Below are positions 37,291 to 49,979 of a stretch of 64,000 nt of DNA, in pieces (position 1 is the stretch's first letter; each line of letters begins with the position of its first letter). The translations under genes were made by a program, and so were the position numbers. The stretch lies in the NCBI RefSeq assembly GCF_009914755.1, contig NC_060930.1. The stretch is one strand, 5' to 3'. The DNA comes from the human T2T-CHM13v2.0 reference genome, Homo sapiens. The notes under the pieces were generated by a model. The model did no database searches. It saw nothing but the letters and a program-made list of their open reading frames with translations, and was not told the DNA's origin.

Positions 37291-40200
37291 AGAGAACTAT
37301 CTTGCTTTCATTTTATACGGTCAGAAACAAGATATTAAATAAGGAAGTGCTCTCAGAAAGAAAGACCTTTGCATTTAAAAATGTGGTTCATCATTTATAT
37401 TTATTTAGTCACACACCATTTTAAAAAGTGTCATTACTTTTTTATCTGTATGATATATATTATTTTTGGACCTGAACTCACAGTTTGTTAAAATGCAAAG
37501 ATAAATAGAAATCAGAAAGCTCTGAATATTAGTTGTCAAAAATAATAAAATAGTTCACCTCTGAATTTTGATGAGCAAATCAACAAGTTCAGTTTTCCAT
37601 CAAGAAAGAAAAATAGCTGTCTCATTCAAATACATTTTTTAATTTATATTATATTAATATTGCTGTCACAGTGACCATTATGACTTCAAGTAATCTATGT
37701 AAACATCATCTAACAAAATGTACCTGAGAACTGTGTTTCATGCTTACCAATTTATTATTCTGCCTATTTGGAAGTTCTATTATTACTAGCATACATAGTT
37801 TATATACTTCTTCCCTTAGGGAGGAAAAACCTCTCAATTATACTGTTTATTAGCTAAGACAAGAACTCTAGCATTTACCTGAATATAAAGCTTTTGGATA
37901 GAGGAGACATATAGTTTAGTGGGAATTTTGGGCACCTAAGATTTATTGCCAGATATTCTTGTTAACTTATTTGGTCTACAGTGATTGTGAAAGTAGGTTT
38001 TTGAGCCTTGTCCCCTTTGTCATTCCAAAACTGAGATTAAAGCAATGCTCAATTTTACATTTAAGATGAATAAAGTATGATTATAAAATAACACATATAA
38101 AATGACCAAAAATTAATAATTAATTGTCTGATGTGGACCATTCAAGCACATCAGACACCTAACAATTAGGATAGATGAGCATCTTTCATGAAAGGAAAGT
38201 TAGCATCTATATTTTTAAGGAGGCATATGATAATAAGGACTACAGAGCAATTACTTTGAGAGTGCTTCTACTGTCACATTTTAGAAGAGGTTCTAATGCA
38301 AGATTTCTGTTTCATTTCTTATTTTTAATTTTACCAAGAAACTCTTGAATTTGCAATTGTATACCACAAATAAATGCATTAGGTACAAGTGCCTCAATGT
38401 CCTAGGAAATTGATGTCTTAGTTCAAAAGGAAATGCTGTTACAGCTTTATAATTGAGTCATATAATTTCCATGGTTGAGTAGATGTTGGCTTTCACCGGT
38501 CCTTGTCCTTTAAAGTCCACCACCTGACACATCACCACAAAGAACAGGTAATTTATTATTTTTTATTGCCATTAATTTATAGCTTTAAGTTTCAAAGGAG
38601 AATTATAAGTTACCACAATATCTGGAGCTTTTTAAGTTTTGTATTCCCCTTTGACTGCTTAGGATAATCTAAATCACCAGAGATTAGAAAAGAATCATGA
38701 AATAATGTTCAAATTACGGAAAAACAGACTTTAAAAAACAGTATTAAAATGGAGGTAAATTATCTTAGTGGATTATTTATTTCTGACAGATTTGCCTATA
38801 TTGTAGTTAAAGAAATTGGCTTTTTTCCTTGATTTATAATGATTTTATTTATAGAAAAAATATAATGGGACAAATTTTCTTTGGATCTAAAATTTTTCTT
38901 AAAATTCAAAATTCAAATGATAGTTGTGGTATTATAAATTTGGATTCTATTTTATTTAAAATGTTGCCACCTCTGAAAATGGCTTAAAGGCTCTATCACA
39001 AAATGTTTGCTAGTAAAATTAATACAATACAATCTAGCTGTATTAACACAGAGCACCAATCAACTTTACCAAACACTATTTGCAAATAAACATTTGTAAT
39101 CAAGAATTTTGGAGACTTAAAATCCATCTCACTTACACACTAGTTATTGAACTTTGAGGTCCAGAGAAGAAAATAATTTATCAGTTTCCTATCCTGTGAT
39201 GTGAGAATAATAACAGGCATATCATAGAAACTTGTGAGGATTATCCCTCTTACATTCATACGAAAACTAAAGTCTAGAGAGGCTAAGAGATCTTAAGGTA
39301 TCACAAAGAGAAACTTGTAGGTTTAGTATTCAAACTTTATATGCCCTGCTCTAAAATGCTACATTTTCCTTGATAAGCACATAATCACATACAGAGTTTC
39401 AGATTATTTAATTTCTTATTCATAGAAAGAATATGTTGGATGTATAAAACATATTTCTTAGGAATTATTATCTACAAAACGGGTTTTAAAATACTGTTAA
39501 CTCCAATCACTTAACAGTTTGAGTTGTTTTGGATGGTTCACCAGTCCCTATAACTCTTGCAGCTTACTGCCATTTGGGTTTCTCAGACAAAACCACAGCC
39601 TTCTACTCGATTTGAGAATTTTTCTTTTTAACCTGTACACTCGCTAAGAGAATACAATTTGGAATAAGTTGACAGAAATAGCTATAATAGTATATGTAGT
39701 TGCACACTGACTGTTTCAGTCAAGGCACAATCAGGGAAAGAAAGTGTTGCAATTAAGTGAATTCAGATCAAAGATTTGGTTAAGATGGTAAAGAAGGAGC
39801 TGAGGACCAGTCAGAACACAGTAAAGGAACATACATATTAGGAACTGCAGGAAACCATCTAGCACTCCTAGACTGGAGAGAGAAAGGAAAATTGTGGTGT
39901 CACTTGAAGTAGCACCAGTCCCTGAACAGAAGCTGGAGATGGAGACATGGAGGACATGTAGTCACTTTAAGAATACCCTTCAAAAAATCAATGAATCCAG
40001 CAGCTGGTTTTTTGAAAAGATCAACAAAATTGATAGACCACTAGGAAGACTAATAAAGAAGAAAAGAGAGAAGAATCAAATAGACACAATAAAAAATGAT
40101 AAAGGGGATATCACCACCAATCCCACAAATATACAAACTACCGTCAGAGAATACTATAAAAACCTCTATGCAAATAAACCAGAAAACCTAGAAGAAATGG

Positions 40201-40369
40201 ACAAATTCTTCAACACATACACCCTCCCAAGACTAAACCAGGAAGAAGTTGAATCTCTGAATAGACCAATAACAGGCTCTGAAATTGAGGCCATAATTAA
40301 TAGCTTACCAAGAAAAAAAGTCCAGGACCAGATGGATTCACAGCCAAATTCTACCAGAGGTACAAGTAG

Positions 40370-40900
<531 letters not shown>

Positions 40901-40903
40901 TAA

Positions 40904-41467
<564 letters not shown>

Positions 41468-41470
41468 TGA

Positions 41471-41809
<339 letters not shown>

Positions 41810-42346
41810 TAAATGTTAGACCTAAAACCATAAAAACCCTAGAAGAAAACCTGGGCAATACCATTCAGGACATAGGCATGGGCAAGGACTTCATGTCTAA
41901 AACACCAAAAGCAATGACAACAAAAGCCAAAATTGACAAATGGGATCTAATTAAACTAAAGAGCTTCTGCCCAGCAAAAGAAACCACCATCAGAATGAAC
42001 AGGCAACCTACAGAATGGGAGAAAGTTTTTGCAATCTACTCATCTGACAAAGGGCTAATATCCAGAACCTACAATGAACTCCAACAAATTTACAACAAAA
42101 AAACAAACAACCCCATCAAAAAGTGGGCAAAGGATATGAACAGACACTTCTCAAAAAGAAGACATTTATGCAGCCAAAAGACACATGAAAAAATGCTCAT
42201 CATCACTGGCCATCAGAGAAATGCAAATCAAAACCACAATGAGATACCATCTCACACCAGTTAGAATGGCGATCATTAAAAAGTCAGGAAACAACAGGTG
42301 CTGGAGAGGATGTGGAGAAATAGGAACATTTTTACACTGTTGGTGC

Positions 42347-43647
42347 TGTGTCCAGAATTGGTGGGTTCTTGGTCTCACTGACTTCAAGAATGAAGCCACG
42401 GAACCTCGCGGTGAGTGTTACAGTTCTTAAAGGTGGCATGTCTGGAGTTTGTTCCCTCTGATGTTCGGACGTATTCGGAATTTCTTCCTTCTGGTGGGTT
42501 TGTGGTCTTGCTGGCTCAGGAGTGAAGCTGCAGACCTTTGCGGTGAGTGTTACAGCTCATAAAGGCAGTGTGGACCCAAAGAGTGAGCAGCAGCAAGATT
42601 TATTGCAAAGAGTGAAAGAACAAAGCTTCCACAGTGTGGAAGGGGACCCGAGTGGGTTGCCACTGCTGGCTCTGGCAGACTGCTTTTATTCTCTTATCTG
42701 GCCCCACCCACATCCTGCTGATTGGTCCATTTTACAGAGAGCCGACTGCTCCATTTTACAGAGAGCTGATTGGTCCGTTTTGACAGGGTGCTGACTGGTG
42801 CGTTTGCAATCCCTGAGCTAGACACAAAAGTTATCCACCTCCCCACTAGATTAGGTAGATACAGAGTGTTGACGCAAAGGTTCTCCAAGTACCCACCAGA
42901 GTAGCTAGATACAGAGTGTCGATTGGTGCATTCACAAACCCTGAGCTAGACACAGGTTGCTGATTGGTGTGTTTACAAACCTTGAGCTAGATACAGAGTG
43001 CCAATTGGTGTATTTACAATCCCTTAGCTAGACATAAAGGTTCTCCAAGTTGCCACCAAACTCAGGAGCCCAGCTGGCTTCACCCAGTGGATCCCATACT
43101 GGGGCTGCAGGTGGAGTTGCCTACCAGTCCTGCACCATGCACCCTCACTCCTCAGCCCTTGGGTGGTCGATGGGACTGGGCGCTGTGGAGCAGGGGGCGG
43201 CGTTGGTCGGGGCGGCTCGGGCTGCGCAGGAGCCCATGGCAGTGGGGAGGCTCAGGCATGGCGGGCTACAGGTCCCAAGCCCTGCCCTGCAAGGAGGCAG
43301 CTAAGGCCCGGCAAGAAGTCCAGCACAGCAGCTGCTGGCCCAGGTGCTAAGCCCCTCACTGCCCAGTGCCAGCAGGGCTGGCCGGCAGCTCCAAGTGCGG
43401 GACCAGCCAAGCCCATGCCCACCCAGAACTCGTGCTGCAGCCCTGGTTCCCGCCTGCGCCTGTCCCTCCACACCTCCCTGGAAGCTGATAGAGCCGGCTC
43501 CAGCCTCGGCCAGCCCAGGAAGGGGCTCCCACCATGCAGCAGAGGGCTGAAGGGCTCCTCAAGTGCTGCCAAAGTGGGAGCCAAGGCAGAGGAGGCACCA
43601 AGAGCAAGCGAGGGCTGCGAGGGCTGTCAGCACGCTGTCACCTCTCA
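42347..43647 (-). mobile_element. LTR12 (ERV9) solo LTR, 1301 bp (LTR12C/D/E group)
   Basis: Minus strand TGAGAGGTGACAGCGTGCTG...CCAATTCTGGACACA with tandem CCAAT-containing repeats; 4-bp TSD GTGC/GTGG (one mismatch). L1 sequence resumes exactly on both sides. Confidence 0.95.
42650..43030 (-). promoter_or_regulatory. LTR12 U3 promoter (NF-Y CCAAT boxes, GATA, AATAAAA TATA-like box)
   Basis: CCAAT at about 42721, 42769, 42922, 42963 and 43004; AGATAAG at 42699-42693; AATAAAA at 42690-42684. The TSS is expected near 42660, firing toward lower coordinates. Confidence 0.7.
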
Positions 43648-45154
43648 GTGGGACTGTAAACTAGTTCAACCATTGTGGAAGTCAGTGTGGCGATTCCTCA
43701 GGGATCTAGAACTAGAATTACCATTTGACCCAGCAATTACATTACTGGGTATATACCCAAAGGATTATAAATCATGCTGCTATAAAGACACATGAAAACG
43801 TATGTTTATTGCGGCACTATTCACAGTAGCAAAGACTTAGAACCAACCCAAATGTCCAACAATGGTAGACTGGATTAAGAAAATGTGACACATATACACC
43901 ATGGAATGCTATTCAGTCATAAAAAAGGATGAGTTCATGTGCTTCGTGGGGACATGGATGAAGCAGGAAACCATCATTCTCAGCAAACAATCACAAGGAC
44001 AAAAAACCAAACACCGCATGTTCTCACTCATAGGTGGGAATTGAACAATGAGAACACATGGACACAGGAAGGGGAACATCACACACTGGGGCCTGTTGTG
44101 GGGTGTGGGGAGGGGGGAGGAGTAGCATTAGGAGATATACCTAATGTTAAATGACGAGTTAATGGGTGCAGCACACCAACATGGCACATGTATACATATG
44201 TAACAAACCTGCACGTTGTGCACATGTACCCTAAAACTTAAAGTATAATAAAAAAAAAAGAAAGAATAGCTGCTAAGGCAGAGTAAGAGGAGAAACATCT
44301 GAGCTCCTTCCTCCCAACTGTTGCCCATCTCTAGAGGCTGACTCAGCTGGAATTCAGGTAATGTGGGATCCAAGGAACAGCGTCTACAGTGCTCAGCCTT
44401 CTTAATATATGATCATTACTCTACAAGCTATGGCATGTTTGATTTGAGAAGCACTCAAATCACCTTATTCATTTTATCAAATTCGGTTCTTTCTTCTGAC
44501 TAAGTACTAGGTACTCAATAGCTACAAAAACTATCCTCCAAAGGCAGAAACAGCATCTTACACTTAGTTATTGGGGATAACCATGATAATATTCCCTCAA
44601 AGCAGATTCTCACACACAGATACTCATCCACTCAGTACGTAAAACCTGACCTTCACTCTGCCTCACCGTATCATAAGCAAAGGATCTCAAGTGAAGAAAC
44701 AAAAACTGACATGTTCCTGGAAGATGCCAATGGTACTGCTATAATTATTTGTCAAAGAATGCAACTAATATTTTTAGAATTTGTCCATGTCATGATTCTC
44801 AATTTTTTAGTTGATTTTTGTGTCACGTTTCTTTTTCTATCACAATTTTAATAATAAGCAGCCCTTCCAACCACCTCCACAGGAGGAAGATTAACTGTGA
44901 GATGGTTAAGGAAAGGCAATGCTAATCAATGATGTGGCCAATTCTTTCTGCAACAGTTATACACATTGTTATATTCCGGGATAAACTTCTCCTGCCCACT
45001 CATAAATTTTTATTTCCTTCTCCTCTGGTTTTATGGTTAAATTAATGAAAAATAAAACTTTTCAGAAGGTAGCTGACTCTTCATGTGATTTCAAACTTAC
45101 CAACAGGAAATATCCAATATACACTCCTTACGCCTTCCTACAGCACATGAAATC

Positions 45155-46395
<1,241 letters not shown>

Positions 46396-46526
46396 TGAAC
46401 TGGCCAGAAACAGAAATTCCTCAAGTGCTTAGCAGAAAAGCCTAGCTATAGTAGCTTCACACTTTTTCTATTTTTAGGCAATTACAAATATATTTTGAAT
46501 TTGGAAAATAACATATAATTTAAATG

Positions 46527-46648
46527 ATATACACACGCATATATACACACACATATATACACATATATGTATATACATATATGTGTATATACATATATAC
46601 ACACATATATACATATATACACACATATATATATATACATATATATAT
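46527..46648. repeat. (TA)n/(CATA)n compound microsatellite
   Basis: Read directly from the sequence. Confidence 0.9.
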
Positions 46649-46958
46649 GCAGTAACTTCCTAATAAGTTTATTTAAATTTATCTGATTTTAGGTGAATAA
46701 AAAATAAAGGTTTGGAGAGTACCTTTTTAAATGTCAGAGGAATCCAACAACCAATTGTACAAGTGAGGGGCAGAAGGAGTCTTTGATTTGAGGATACCTA
46801 GTAGCTGTTGTTGCACATCTGATCACTTTGCCTATTCTTCTTACTACCTGGGTGTCAAATCAATTCAGAAAAATAATCTGGAAACTGTAAACCAAAAATA
46901 AAATTCTAAGCACCCCCAATCAACTGAAGAGACCCCTCATCTCAGCCAAGTGCATTCT

Positions 46959-47489
46959 TTTTTTTTTTTTTTTTGAGATGGAGTCCTGCTGTGTTGCCCA
47001 GGCTAGAGTGCAGTGGTGCAATCTTGACTCACTGCAACCTCTGCCTCCTGGGTTCAAGCTATTCTCCTGACTCAGCCTCCTGAGTACCAAGGACCACAAG
47101 CACCCGCCACCATGCCCAGCTGATTTTTGTATTTTTAGTAGAGACAGGGTTTCGCTAAAACTAGTGAAAAGCATTTTCCTTTATAGAAAAAATTTTCACA
47201 CACTAACTTCCACAGTGGTTGAACTAGTTTACAGTCCCACCAACAGTGTAAAAGTGTTCCTATTTCTCCACATCCTCTCCAGCACCTGTTGTTTCCTGAC
47301 TTTTTAATGATCGCCATTCTAACTGATATGAGATGGTATCTCATTGTGGTTTTGATATGCATTTAGCTATCGATGACAAATCCACAGCGATATTGGGCAG
47401 GCTGGTCTCAAACTCCTGACTTCACGTGATTCACCCACCTTGGCCTCCCAAAGCACTGAGATTACAGGCATGAGCCACTGCACATGGCC
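46959..47489 (-). mobile_element. AluS interrupted by a 233-bp foreign insertion at 47156-47388
   Basis: 17-bp TSD tcagccaagtgcattct at 46942-46958 and 47491-47507. The Alu breaks at agggtttcgc| and resumes at |gatattgggcaggctgg. Confidence 0.93.
47199..47388 (+). repeat. Dispersed local copy of 45730-45919 (L1 inversion junction)
   Basis: 47236-47388 is identical to 45767-45919 (153 nt, offset 1469); the first 37 nt differ at 6 positions. Confidence 0.95.
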
Positions 47490-48052
47490 ATCAGCCAAGT
47501 GCATTCTAAAGTAAACCAGAAACCCTAGTTCAGGCCATGATAGGAATAGGTGGTCAGACATGCCTCATTATACCTCCCTCCTGTTGGATTAATTTGGGCA
47601 CAGCTGGCCAGCATTAACACTAAAACAGAAACCTTAAGACGGACAGAACAGACTCTTTGTAGCAATAAGATACCTACATGACAGCAGGTTCTGAAAGAAA
47701 TTGAAGTATTAATATTTTACTCCCAAACATATTTATTTGACATATTTTGAAATGGCCCCGCAAAGCTGTCTCTTGTCGGGGAAAATCTACATTCTGTAGA
47801 GAATCCTTTTCCCTTTCCAGGTGTTTTTACTGATCCGGAGTGAATTAACAAAGAGTCTGGCACCTGTTAAAGTTTGACAAGAAACATTTACAATGTCTTC
47901 TCTCCGAAGCCTGCTACCTGGAGCCTTCATCTGCATAATAAGAACCCGGGTCTCTAAAACCCCTGATCTTAACCCAGACAGTCCCTTCTGTTGATTCCTG
48001 ATCTTTAGATGCACTCTTTCAACTAATTGCCAATTAGAAAATCTTTGAATTT

Positions 48053-48409
<357 letters not shown>

Positions 48410-49979
48410 CTACCCACTTCAAGTTGTCCCGACTTTCTGTACAGATTCAATCAATGTACATCTTGCATGTATTGATTGATGTCTTATGTCTCCCTAAAAT
48501 GTATAAAACCAAGCTGTAGCCCAACCACCTTGGGCACATGTTCTCAGGATCTCACGGAGCTGTGTCATGGGGCCAAGGTCACTTGTATTTTGCTCAGAAT
48601 AAATCTCCAAATATTTTACAGAGTTTGACTCTTTTTGTCAACAAAATGTAAAGCATTAAAAGAAATTAGCCAGCAATATACTTAATTATCATGAGCATAG
48701 TAAGCGATTTTAGTTTTCCTTTCATCACTTATTAATATCTTACATCAAATTTATTTTTACACTGACAGGATTATATCCCTTCTTTAAAGCTTTCTATTTA
48801 TAGTATGCAATGTAATATGGAGGTTACTACCTACTTCAAGCATAGAAGGCCCATCCTTTATACTCCACAGGCTTGTAGCACATTTATATCTGAGAATTAC
48901 TAGTGAAAAGCTTCCTTTAACAGTTTTAGAAATGAAAATCAAGAACATCTGTGACTTTTGTTTGACCCCCCCCCCCCCATAGGCAGTTACAAGGCAAATG
49001 TGCATACTCCTCTAGCAATCACTATAGCAACAAGCAAGTAATTGCTTTAAATAGCATAAGGTGCCTTTGCTGAAATCATTTCAAGTATCCTGAGTTAACT
49101 CTGTGTCAACAAAGCACTCATAGGTCTTGGATTCTTTAATGGGGGTTCTTTTAAAAAAGAAAATTACAGCTTTGTAATTGGTCATTTAAAATTTCAGAAA
49201 AATGTAGATACACCAAAGAAAATGTATTCTCCAACTATGAAGAAATAATTGGCAAAATAGTATCATTTTCATATTCCTAATAATTTTTCCTATACATATA
49301 CTGTATGTGTTTATTTATATTTCTTATTTCTTACTATAAGACTTTAAGCCAGTGCTTGTGTTACCTGTTTTCATTGCCTTCTTACAATTATCTTATACAG
49401 ATATATTATAAAATAAACTCACTTTTAAAATATTTTCTGTGATAAGATTATGAAATGGCATCCAAAGGGAATCACACGCAGGATTTTTTATTTTATTTCT
49501 GAAAAATATTTGTAGGTTCAATTTAATTATCATATATTGAAAGGTGCTTAGTGCTTTTTTGCATCAGACAAGGTGAAAAATTCAACTTTCAAATGGCTAT
49601 AGTCCCTGGCTTCTTATTTTCATCTTAGCAAAATAAAACAACACCCTACTTATGAATTGAAATTGTAATGCCATTCCATTTTCTGCTATACCATAGAAAT
49701 AACTCTAAATACTAAAATGTATAAAGTGGAAAATGCTGATAGTATTCCAATTTGTTTCATTTTCAATTTGAAGAAAAAGGATATGTGTCTCCTGGGGTGA
49801 AGAAATGAGTCAATTAGGTATAGAAGAAGGGGCATGACTATATCAAGCTTACACTAAAAATGCTGAATAACAATGACAAATTAGATAATTATTAATAAGT
49901 AGATAATTCCAACCCTAAAAAACAAAAGACCTTGCATGGTTAATATACAAATGACTTTTAGAAACATAAACATAAATGG

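What the first reader, a model, noticed from the sequence alone, without database searches (positions are those of the whole stretch)
47156..47388. Locally templated 233-bp insertion inside an Alu that copies the unique inversion junction of a neighbouring L1
Seen: the AluS is cut at tttcgc| and resumes without loss of sequence. The insert has no poly(A) and no TSD, only GC at both junctions. Its last 153 nt are identical to 45767-45919. That includes the chimeric twin-priming junction (gatatgcattt|agctatcgatg), which is specific to that insertion, and five variants absent from the L1PA4 at 39976. Inference: this is not retrotransposition but capture of nearby sequence during break repair or replication (template switching of the MMBIR/FoSTeS or polymerase-theta type). 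It happened much later than the L1 insertion, so it may be lineage-specific or polymorphic.
Basis: partly seen in the sequence, partly recalled or inferred. Interest (0 to 1): 0.8.

Follow-up and report, generated by a model that had tools for sequence, protein, structure and literature searches.

The report
Three-donor templated patch inside an Alu
A 233-base insert inside an Alu in an EYS intron is a repair patch copied from three other places on the chromosome, one about 430 kb away; it is a clear example of a known kind of break-repair scar.

Summary
An Alu is interrupted after 47155 and resumes at 47389 with no bases lost. There is no poly(A) and no target-site duplication, only GC at both edges. 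The last 153 nt equal 45767-45919, including the neighbouring L1's inversion junction. A 40-mer across that junction occurs exactly twice in the genome.

The insert is not simply local, though. It is a mosaic of three donors, all on the + strand:
- 47160-47172 copies 48899-48911, about 1.5 kb downstream.
- 47176-47300 is identical to G000:C6:65275377-65275501, about 430 kb upstream. It includes the unique target-site/L1 junction of a second twin-primed L1.
- 47236-47388 copies the neighbour.

The switch between the two L1 donors is in register. Six informative sites follow the distant donor, then six follow the neighbour, with one crossover in a 65-nt identity block. Seven nt (TAAA, ATT) remain unexplained.

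My best reading is one germline break patched by serial template switching and then end joining. This is a complex templated insertion of the MMBIR/SDSA type. An RNA or cDNA template is not excluded. There are no differences from the donors over 226 nt, so the event is young (roughly under 7-13 My). Whether it is polymorphic could not be tested. It is a new member of a known kind.

The parts
46943..46957 (.). Left target-site duplication of the host Alu (CAGCCAAGTGCATTC)
   Evidence: The exact 15-mer is found only at 46943 and 47492 in the window; sequence read.
46958..47155 (-). Host Alu, left arm on the + strand: poly-T, then the Alu in reverse orientation, ending ...GGGTTTCGC
   Evidence: It aligns with 5 of 5 intact Alu copies of the window up to the break.
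47156..47388 (+). The 233-nt insert: a mosaic patch with no poly(A) and no TSD
47156..47159 (+). TAAA: 4 nt of filler with no in-register template. A weak lead is that CTAAAACT (47155-47162) equals the reverse complement of 48922-48929.
   Evidence: The chance level was estimated only roughly, so this lead is tentative.
47160..47172 (+). 13 nt copied from donor C (48899-48911)
   Evidence: Exact 13-mer match; sequence read. The pattern of the 13-mer, 0-8 nt, then TTCCTTTA has exactly 2 hits genome-wide: the insert and 48899.
47173..47175 (+). ATT: 3 nt between the donor C and donor A segments, unexplained. The alternative parse is a CTG>T scar in a donor A copy that reaches GCAT.
   Evidence: junction table.
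47176..47235 (+). Segment that can only come from donor A. Donor A lies OUTSIDE the window at G000:C6:65275377-65275501 (+), which is window places -382623 to -382499 and locus L003 local 1501-1625, 429,779 nt upstream of the insertion point. The segment holds 23 nt of non-L1 flank and TSD plus the start of that L1's inverted arm, and carries 6 of 6 donor-A-specific bases. Donor A is identical to the insert over 47176-47300.
   Evidence: A 41-mer across the flank/L1 junction has exactly 2 hits genome-wide at up to 3 mismatches.
47236..47300 (+). Crossover zone: 65 nt identical in the insert, donor A and the neighbour. It is the longest of 13 identity blocks between the two L1 donors.
47301..47388 (+). 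Segment that can only come from the neighbouring L1. It carries 6 of 6 neighbour-specific bases, the inversion junction (47364|47365) and 24 nt of the sense arm.
47389..47491 (-). Host Alu, right arm, resuming GATATTGGGCAGG
47492..47506 (.). Right target-site duplication of the host Alu
45767..45919 (+). Donor B: the stretch of the neighbouring twin-primed L1 that is identical to 47236-47388. It ends 1,237 nt upstream of the break.
45149..46358 (-). Neighbouring L1 in minus orientation, of twin-priming type. Layout: TSD GAAATCTTT at 45149 and 46350, poly-T from about 45158, antisense 3' part up to 45897, then the inverted (sense on +) ORF2 part from 45898 to about 46352.
   Evidence: strand assignment; definition of twin priming from passages of PMC2837659.
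48899..48919 (+). Donor C: ACTAGTGAAAAGC followed by TTCCTTTA. These 8 nt also open the donor A segment. It lies about 1.5 kb downstream of the break.

Best explanation
One germline break inside the Alu, between 47155 and what is now 47389, was repaired by DNA synthesis that copied short stretches from several other places and was then joined back with no loss of Alu sequence. The patch reads: Alu...GC, TAAA, 13 nt from 48899-48911, ATT, 60-125 nt from the flank/L1 junction of a twin-primed L1 about 430 kb upstream, 88-153 nt from the neighbouring L1 across its inversion junction, then GC shared with the Alu. The switch between the two L1 donors was guided by homology: it is in register and lies within 65 identical nt. 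The other switches used microhomology or filler, namely TTCCTTTA shared by donor C and donor A, and GC at the exit. This is a complex, multi-donor templated insertion of the MMBIR/FoSTeS or multi-invasion SDSA kind, finished by end joining, with DNA as template. The mosaic, the donors and the junction sequences are shown. A single event, DNA rather than RNA as template, and the direction of synthesis are inferred. One sub-model fits the mix of junction types. In it the two break ends each copied a different ectopic donor, the right end copying the neighbour and the left end copying donor C and then donor A. The two nascent strands then annealed through their shared L1 sequence.
For: The mosaic is clean. 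Of 12 informative sites, the 6 on the left match donor A and the 6 on the right match the neighbour, with one crossover. Both donor-specific junctions are single-copy markers: the inversion 40-mer has 2 hits genome-wide and the flank/L1 41-mer has 2 hits. The donor C pattern also has 2 hits genome-wide, and the 8 nt that follow the copied 13-mer in donor C are the first 8 nt of the donor A segment. All three donors are intact at their own loci, with their L1 TSDs in place, so sequence was copied and not moved. Retrotransposition hallmarks are absent: no poly(A), no AATAAA, no TSD, and the target reads GGGTTTCGC|GATATT, which is not T-rich. The Alu shows no loss. In print, germline 'complex' templated insertions from three templates with imperfect microhomology are described in PMC8421209 (sections read). 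Multi-donor insertions at human DSBs, made by contact, annealing at microhomology, BIR-like synthesis and NHEJ, with a median size of 120 bp, are described in the preprint 10.1101/2022.09.30.509517 (passages).
Against: Seven nt (TAAA, ATT) have no in-register template. The TTCCTTTA microhomology sits 3 nt out of place, so that switch is not cleanly explained. The Alu arms show no excess of substitutions within 20 nt of the junctions (6 of 38 positions against 41 of 263 overall, Fisher p = 0.57), so the error-prone-synthesis signature reported around some replicative rearrangements is absent there. All three donors are in the same orientation as the recipient and lie within one transcription unit, EYS, which is on the minus strand per the hub annotation. 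An RNA template would predict this arrangement. Random DNA templates would give it about 1 time in 8 (my estimate). A 430-kb jump is long for a local template switch, and I had no chromatin-contact data. That this was a single event is argued from parsimony and is not shown.
Confidence: 0.6

Rival explanations
1. RNA- or cDNA-templated patch (class 2 templated sequence insertion). A reverse transcriptase, such as L1 ORF2p acting without its endonuclease, extended the broken + strand end on intronic EYS pre-mRNA. It jumped between RNA stretches, adding a few untemplated nt at each jump, and the cDNA was then joined to the other end.
For: All three donors are on the + strand and inside the EYS span, and EYS is transcribed from the minus strand (hub annotation). 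A cDNA of EYS RNA would therefore have exactly this orientation. Fillers of 3-4 nt at two switches resemble the untemplated additions that reverse transcriptases make when jumping templates (recalled). The size, the absence of TSD and poly(A), and the microhomology fit class 2 TSIPs, which are 73-414 bp with a median of 191. The authors of that class attribute them to reverse-transcribed RNA (PMC5110952, whole text read).
Against: The donor order in the insert is C, then A, then the neighbour. This is not collinear with the EYS transcript in either direction, where the order is C, neighbour, A (coordinates). Several intermolecular jumps at internal RNA positions would therefore be needed. The in-register switch inside 65 nt of identity is what strand annealing would give. 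EYS is mainly a retinal gene (recalled), so germline RNA would be scarce. If the tentative 5-nt inverted piece next to donor C is real, both strands of that site were used.
Confidence: 0.22
2. Copy or capture from one contiguous template that no longer exists in this genome. The template could be a haplotype with an L1/L1 unequal-recombination deletion of about 430 kb, which would place donor A's flank, a chimeric L1 and the neighbour's junction 1.2 kb from the Alu. It could also be a free chimeric DNA fragment captured by end joining.
For: The insert has exactly the 'donor A left, neighbour right' configuration that a deletion between two direct L1 repeats would create. Capture of fragments at breaks is known (PMC5110952).
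Against: It requires an extra large deletion in EYS, and then a crossover within about 1.2 kb to move the insert onto an undeleted chromosome. It does not account for the donor C segment or the fillers. No such sequence exists elsewhere in this genome.
Confidence: 0.08
3. Two-step history: an older single-donor insert was later overwritten in part by gene conversion from the other L1.
For: Interlocus gene conversion between nearby L1 copies is common (recalled), and conversion would also give a sharp boundary between identity tracts.
Against: Each donor contributes unique non-homologous sequence at an outer edge of the insert: 23 nt of flank from donor A and 24 nt beyond the inversion junction from the neighbour. 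Conversion would need homology beyond those edges. On one side is the Alu and on the other the donor C piece, and neither provides it. Both tracts show 0 differences from their donors, so both would have to be recent.
Confidence: 0.05
4. Assembly artefact in the telomere-to-telomere assembly.
For: No evidence from these tools.
Against: A chimeric artefact would not be expected to restore the Alu to the base, carry microhomology at its edges, or stitch three donors in register.
Confidence: 0.02

Closest known systems
Complex templated insertions attributed to MMBIR ('complex MMB-TI', Osia et al. 2021, PMC8421209; sections read)
   Same: They are germline variants in which one insertion is built from up to three templates by successive switches. 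Microhomology at the junctions is often imperfect or interrupted, and synthesis returns to the original site.
   Different: The search in that paper targets inverted templates within 100 bp and insertions no longer than a read. Here the donors are direct, lie 1.2 kb, 1.5 kb and 430 kb away, and give a 233-nt patch. One switch uses 65 nt of L1 identity, which is far more than microhomology.
Multi-donor templated insertions at human double-strand breaks (preprint 10.1101/2022.09.30.509517, 'Mechanisms of insertions at a DNA double-strand break'; passages only)
   Same: One or several donor pieces are inserted at a break. The median size is about 120 bp and donors are enriched on the same chromosome. 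The proposed route is contact, annealing at microhomology, BIR-like synthesis, displacement, and NHEJ at the acceptor.
   Different: Those are somatic events in cultured cells at an engineered acceptor, with donors tied to transcription and induced breaks. This one is a natural event fixed or segregating in the germline, whose donors carry unique L1 junctions.
Class 2 templated sequence insertion polymorphisms (Onozawa & Aplan 2016 review, PMC5110952; whole text read)
   Same: They have no TSD, no poly(A) and no L1 endonuclease site, and show microhomology and extra nucleotides at the junctions. The donor stays intact and the size range is 73-414 bp.
   Different: The review does not use the word 'chimeric' and does not describe multi-donor patches (term search). 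Its screen required unique donors. The authors favour an RNA origin. Polymorphism is untested here. The two primary papers (PMC4419790, PMC4040595) are not held, so their tables could not be checked for this locus.
Alu/Alu-mediated rearrangements by template switching (search listing only: PMC6071635, PMC13041450)
   Same: An in-register chimeric repeat forms where synthesis or recombination passes from one dispersed repeat copy to another.
   Different: Those events produce deletions or duplications between the two repeats. Here the chimeric L1 is only a 166-nt piece inside a patch, and the 430 kb between the two L1 copies is unchanged.

Membership tests
Class 2 templated sequence insertion (TSI/TSIP) | The inserted sequence is templated from elsewhere and the donor locus is left intact | tested here: met
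   Three donors were identified and all are present at their own loci.
Class 2 templated sequence insertion (TSI/TSIP) | No TSD of 5 bp or more, no poly(A) tract or poly(A) signal, and not at a TTTT/A site | tested here: met
   Only GC is repeated. There is no AATAAA, the longest A or T run is 6, and the target reads GGGTTTCGC|GATATT.
Class 2 templated sequence insertion (TSI/TSIP) | End-joining features at the junctions (microhomology, extra nucleotides) | tested here: met
   GC microhomology at the exit; 4-nt and 3-nt fillers.
Class 2 templated sequence insertion (TSI/TSIP) | Polymorphic among humans | not testable with these tools
   No other human or ape genome is held; the genome search states that the genome has no relatives here.
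Class 2 templated sequence insertion (TSI/TSIP) | Derived from reverse-transcribed RNA (the authors' proposal) | not testable with these tools
   Donor orientation is compatible with it but the donor order is not collinear with the transcript. No expression data were available.
MMBIR/FoSTeS-type complex templated insertion | Two or more template switches within one event | tested here: met
   At least three donors and four junctions. That it was a single event is inferred.
MMBIR/FoSTeS-type complex templated insertion | Microhomology or microhomeology at each switch | tested here: inconclusive
   Exit: GC. Donor A to neighbour: 65 nt of identity. Donor C to donor A: 8 nt shared but displaced by 3 nt. 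Alu to donor C: none, with 4-nt filler.
MMBIR/FoSTeS-type complex templated insertion | Narrow MMB-TI signature: inverted template within 100 bp of the insertion | tested here: not met
   Donors are direct and lie 1,237 nt, about 1,510 nt and 429,779 nt away. Only a tentative 5-8 nt inverted piece was seen.
MMBIR/FoSTeS-type complex templated insertion | Raised substitution density next to the breakpoints | tested here: not met
   6 of 38 positions differ within 20 nt of the junctions against 41 of 263 overall, p = 0.57. There are 0 substitutions in 226 templated nt.
L1 retrotransposition (target-primed, or endonuclease-independent L1 insertion) | Poly(A) tail, TSD, T-rich nick site, and a 3' end of an L1 transcript | tested here: not met
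   None of these is present. The L1 piece is internal and carries junctions private to two genomic copies plus non-L1 flank.
Interlocus gene conversion or unequal homologous recombination | Homology between donor and recipient on both sides of the transferred tract | tested here: not met
   The recipient is an Alu with no similarity to the donors at either edge.
Twin-primed (5'-inverted) L1, applied to the two L1 donors only | [quoted passage not shown] | tested here: met
   Neighbour: TSD GAAATCTTT at 45149 and 46350, a poly-T, and arms matching opposite strands of one L1 copy. Donor A locus: antisense arm at L003 1524-2404, sense arm at 2404-2966 with poly(A), and TSD AAAA[A/G]TTTTCA.

The most novel reading that the evidence does not exclude
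The patch is a natural germline footprint of transcript-templated break repair. A break in an EYS intron would have been bridged by cDNA copied from three stretches of the gene's own intronic RNA, one of them 430 kb away along the transcript, with the reverse transcriptase jumping between them. The unique L1 junctions would then serve as built-in barcodes that show the RNA came from the same gene. A more modest version is that this is a human-specific or still-segregating multi-donor DNA patch, showing that germline repair synthesis can hop 430 kb between dispersed L1 copies without leaving any copy-number change.
Probability: 0.2. Interest if true: 0.65.

Novelty: new member of a known kind. 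Interest (0 to 1): 0.42.

Why it matters
By chance the patch carries two single-copy markers: the private junctions of two different twin-primed L1 insertions. The donors of sequence that would otherwise be uninformative L1 can therefore be named with certainty. This makes it a well-resolved natural example of several points:
- Germline break repair can stitch several donors together.
- Dispersed L1 copies can guide an in-register switch across about 430 kb.
- All of this can happen without any deletion or duplication.

If the insert is polymorphic or human-specific, it dates such an event and provides an empty allele for comparison.

There is also a practical point, which is an inference. The patch joins 'donor A left' to 'neighbour right', which is the signature of a 430-kb L1-mediated deletion in EYS, a recessive retinitis pigmentosa gene. 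Reads from this patch could therefore mislead structural-variant calling at this locus.

Tried and rejected
- **A single source for the first 80 nt within the window:** none was found. blastn of the insert against the window explains only 47199-47388, plus a short gapped hit at 48899 that proved real.
- **The 20-nt head as a diverged copy of donor A's flank:** a gapped local alignment scores no better than shuffles (81% of shuffles reach the observed score). Rejected.
- **A chr1 site as source of the head:** it matches the 24-mer with 2 mismatches (L022), but the similarity does not extend into the flanks. Treated as chance.
- **Error-prone synthesis scars in the Alu arms:** no excess of differences.
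- **A 10-mer, AGCATTTTCC, matching the minus strand about 2.6 kb downstream:** about 0.5 such matches are expected by chance. Dropped.
- **Fold-back origin of TAAA from 48922-48929:** kept only as a tentative lead.
- **Other L1 copies as sole donor of the 166-nt L1 part:** the best of the 40 scored candidates, out of 1,864 found, are 96-98% identical and none extends into either unique flank.
- **The two primary TSI papers:** not held, so I could not check whether this locus is in their lists.
- **Searches for prior description:** searches were searches on mechanisms. None was specific to this locus, so I make no claim that the insert is undescribed in print.

Full report
**1. The observation**

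The + strand at 46958-47491 is an Alu in reverse orientation, with its poly-T first. It is flanked by a 15-nt target-site duplication, CAGCCAAGTGCATTC, at 46943 and 47492. The Alu stops at ...AGGGTTTCGC (47155) and resumes at GATATTGGGCAGG (47389).

I aligned the whole stretch with five intact Alu copies from the same window. In 5 of 5 the two arms are adjacent, and the arms of the interrupted copy add up to the same length. Nothing was lost or duplicated except the ambiguous GC that ends both the left arm and the insert.

The 233-nt insert (47156-47388) has these properties:
- no AATAAA on either strand, and one ATTAAA on the minus strand;
- no A or T run longer than 6;
- a target site that is not T-rich.

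**2.

blastn of the region against the window gives 47199-47388 = 45730-45919 with 6 mismatches. All six lie in the first 37 nt, so the last 153 nt are identical. If the six were scattered at random, the chance of that clustering is 5e-5.

The identical tract crosses a true inversion junction. 47238-47364 matches the minus strand of a contiguous L1 copy in the window (42345-42219), and 47365-47388 matches its plus strand (40804-40827).

The neighbouring element has the full twin-priming layout. Its TSD is GAAATCTTT at 45149 and 46350, with a poly-T from about 45158. The antisense 3' arm runs to 45897 and the inverted arm runs from 45898 to about 46352. The definition of twin priming comes from passages of PMC2837659.

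A 40-mer across the junction occurs exactly twice in the 3.1-Gb genome at up to 2 mismatches, and the reversed control gives 0.

**3.

Searching the whole genome with 47140-47405 returned the self match and the neighbour. It also returned a third place, G000:C6:65275377-65275565 (+), whose match starts 23 nt before the L1 homology begins.

I put all three sequences in register:
- The insert is identical to the distant locus over 47176-47300.
- It is identical to the neighbour over 47236-47388.
- The two L1 donors differ at 12 sites. The six on the left (47202, 05, 13, 15, 26, 35) all carry the distant donor's base.
- The six on the right (47301, 14, 26, 28, 38, 57) all carry the neighbour's base.
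- The single crossover lies in a 65-nt block identical in all three, the longest of 13 identity blocks.

The distant locus is itself a twin-primed L1 in + orientation. It consists of flank and TSD, an antisense arm (L003 1524-2404), a sense arm (2404-2966), a poly(A), and TSD AAAA[A/G]TTTTCA.

The insert therefore also carries that element's private target-site/L1 junction. A 41-mer across it has exactly two hits genome-wide at up to 3 mismatches. The distance from this donor to the insertion point is 429,779 nt. In window places the donor lies at -382623 to -382499, outside the window.

**4. A third donor**

The first 20 nt had no gap-free match elsewhere. A 24-mer at up to 2 mismatches found only itself and a chr1 site whose flanks do not match.

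A k-mer scan of the surroundings found that 47160-47172 (ACTAGTGAAAAGC) equals 48899-48911 on the same strand, about 1.5 kb beyond the break. In that donor the next 8 nt are TTCCTTTA, which are the first 8 nt of the distant-donor segment. The combined pattern (the 13-mer, 0-8 nt, then TTCCTTTA) has exactly two hits in the genome: the insert and 48899.

In total, 226 of the 233 nt are templated, with 0 substitutions.

TAAA (47156-47159) and ATT (47173-47175) are left over. The following weak leads bear on the leftover bases and the junctions; I do not rely on any of them:
- CTAAAACT equals the reverse complement of 48922-48929.
- The distant donor reads GCAT-CTG-TTCC where the insert reads GCAT-T-TTCC.
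- At the exit junction, ATAT is shared one base out of register.

**5. Mechanism**

The features point to one break patched by copying:
- the donors are intact;
- the Alu is restored to the base;
- retrotransposition hallmarks are absent;
- there are several donors;
- the junctions use microhomology or filler;
- one switch is guided by homology.

Gene conversion in two steps is unlikely. Each donor contributes unique, non-homologous sequence at an outer edge of the patch, and no homology lies beyond those edges.

I favour DNA-templated serial template switching finished by end joining (confidence 0.6). The sequence does not fix the direction of synthesis. One attractive variant has the two ends each copying a different ectopic donor and the nascent strands annealing through the shared 166-nt L1 stretch. 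That would explain why the internal junction uses long homology while the outer ones use 0-2 nt.

Two results count against a classic error-prone replicative event:
- There is no excess of substitutions in the Alu arms next to the patch (6 of 38 positions against 41 of 263 overall, p = 0.57).
- There are no substitutions in the copied segments.

**6. The main rival: an RNA or cDNA template (0.22)**

All donors are on the + strand and inside EYS, which is transcribed from the minus strand (hub annotation). That is the orientation a cDNA of EYS intronic RNA would have. Class 2 templated insertions of this size are attributed to reverse-transcribed RNA by the authors who defined them (PMC5110952).

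Three points weigh against this rival. The donor order is not collinear with the transcript. The in-register switch looks like strand annealing. EYS is mainly retinal (recalled).

Lesser rivals are:
- a lost contiguous template or a captured chimeric fragment (0.08);
- a stepwise history with gene conversion (0.05);
- an assembly artefact (0.02).

**7. Age**

With 0 differences in 226 templated nt, and rates of 0.5-1.0e-9 per site per year on both copies (rates recalled), the 95% upper bound is about 6.6-13 My. At 6.5 My the chance of seeing no difference is 0.05-0.23.

The event is young relative to the Alu, which differs from the majority of five window copies at 41 of 263 positions, and relative to both L1 insertions. 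Whether it is human-specific or polymorphic cannot be decided here.

**8. Comparison with what is known**

- Germline 'complex' templated insertions from three templates, with imperfect microhomology, are described in PMC8421209. That screen targets inverted templates within 100 bp.
- Multi-donor insertions at human breaks, made through contact, annealing, BIR-like synthesis and NHEJ, are described in the preprint 10.1101/2022.09.30.509517 (passages).
- Class 2 TSIPs share the junction features and the size.

This case is therefore a new member of a known kind. Three things set it apart: the donors are proven by two private L1 junctions, one switch runs through L1 homology across about 430 kb, and there is no accompanying copy-number change. 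I did not find this locus in print, but my searches were on mechanisms and not on this locus, and the two primary TSI papers are not held.

**9. Verdict**

Interest is moderate (0.42).

Noticed in passing
window 39972-44262, with an insert at 42346-43647: A + oriented L1 copy with its poly(A) near 44250 is split by an LTR-like element of about 1.3 kb, and the L1 sequence continues across it. The name LTR12/HERV9 is only recalled and was not tested.
   Followed up: no
window 46520-46650: An AT-rich (CA/TA)n-type microsatellite lies between the neighbouring L1 and the Alu, about 0.5 kb from the break. It is a possible fork-stalling or fragile sequence.
   Followed up: no
window 48966-48978: A run of about 12 C lies roughly 50 nt beyond donor C.
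   Followed up: no
L003 1501-2980 (G000:C6:65275377-65276856): The distant donor is itself a complete twin-primed L1. It has an antisense arm, a sense arm starting only a few bases from where the antisense arm begins, a poly(A), and a 12-13-nt TSD.
   Followed up: partly
window 45730-45766: In the 37 nt just left of the identical tract, the neighbouring L1 carries four private substitutions (45733, 45744, 45757, 45766). This cluster is what exposed the mosaic.
   Followed up: yes
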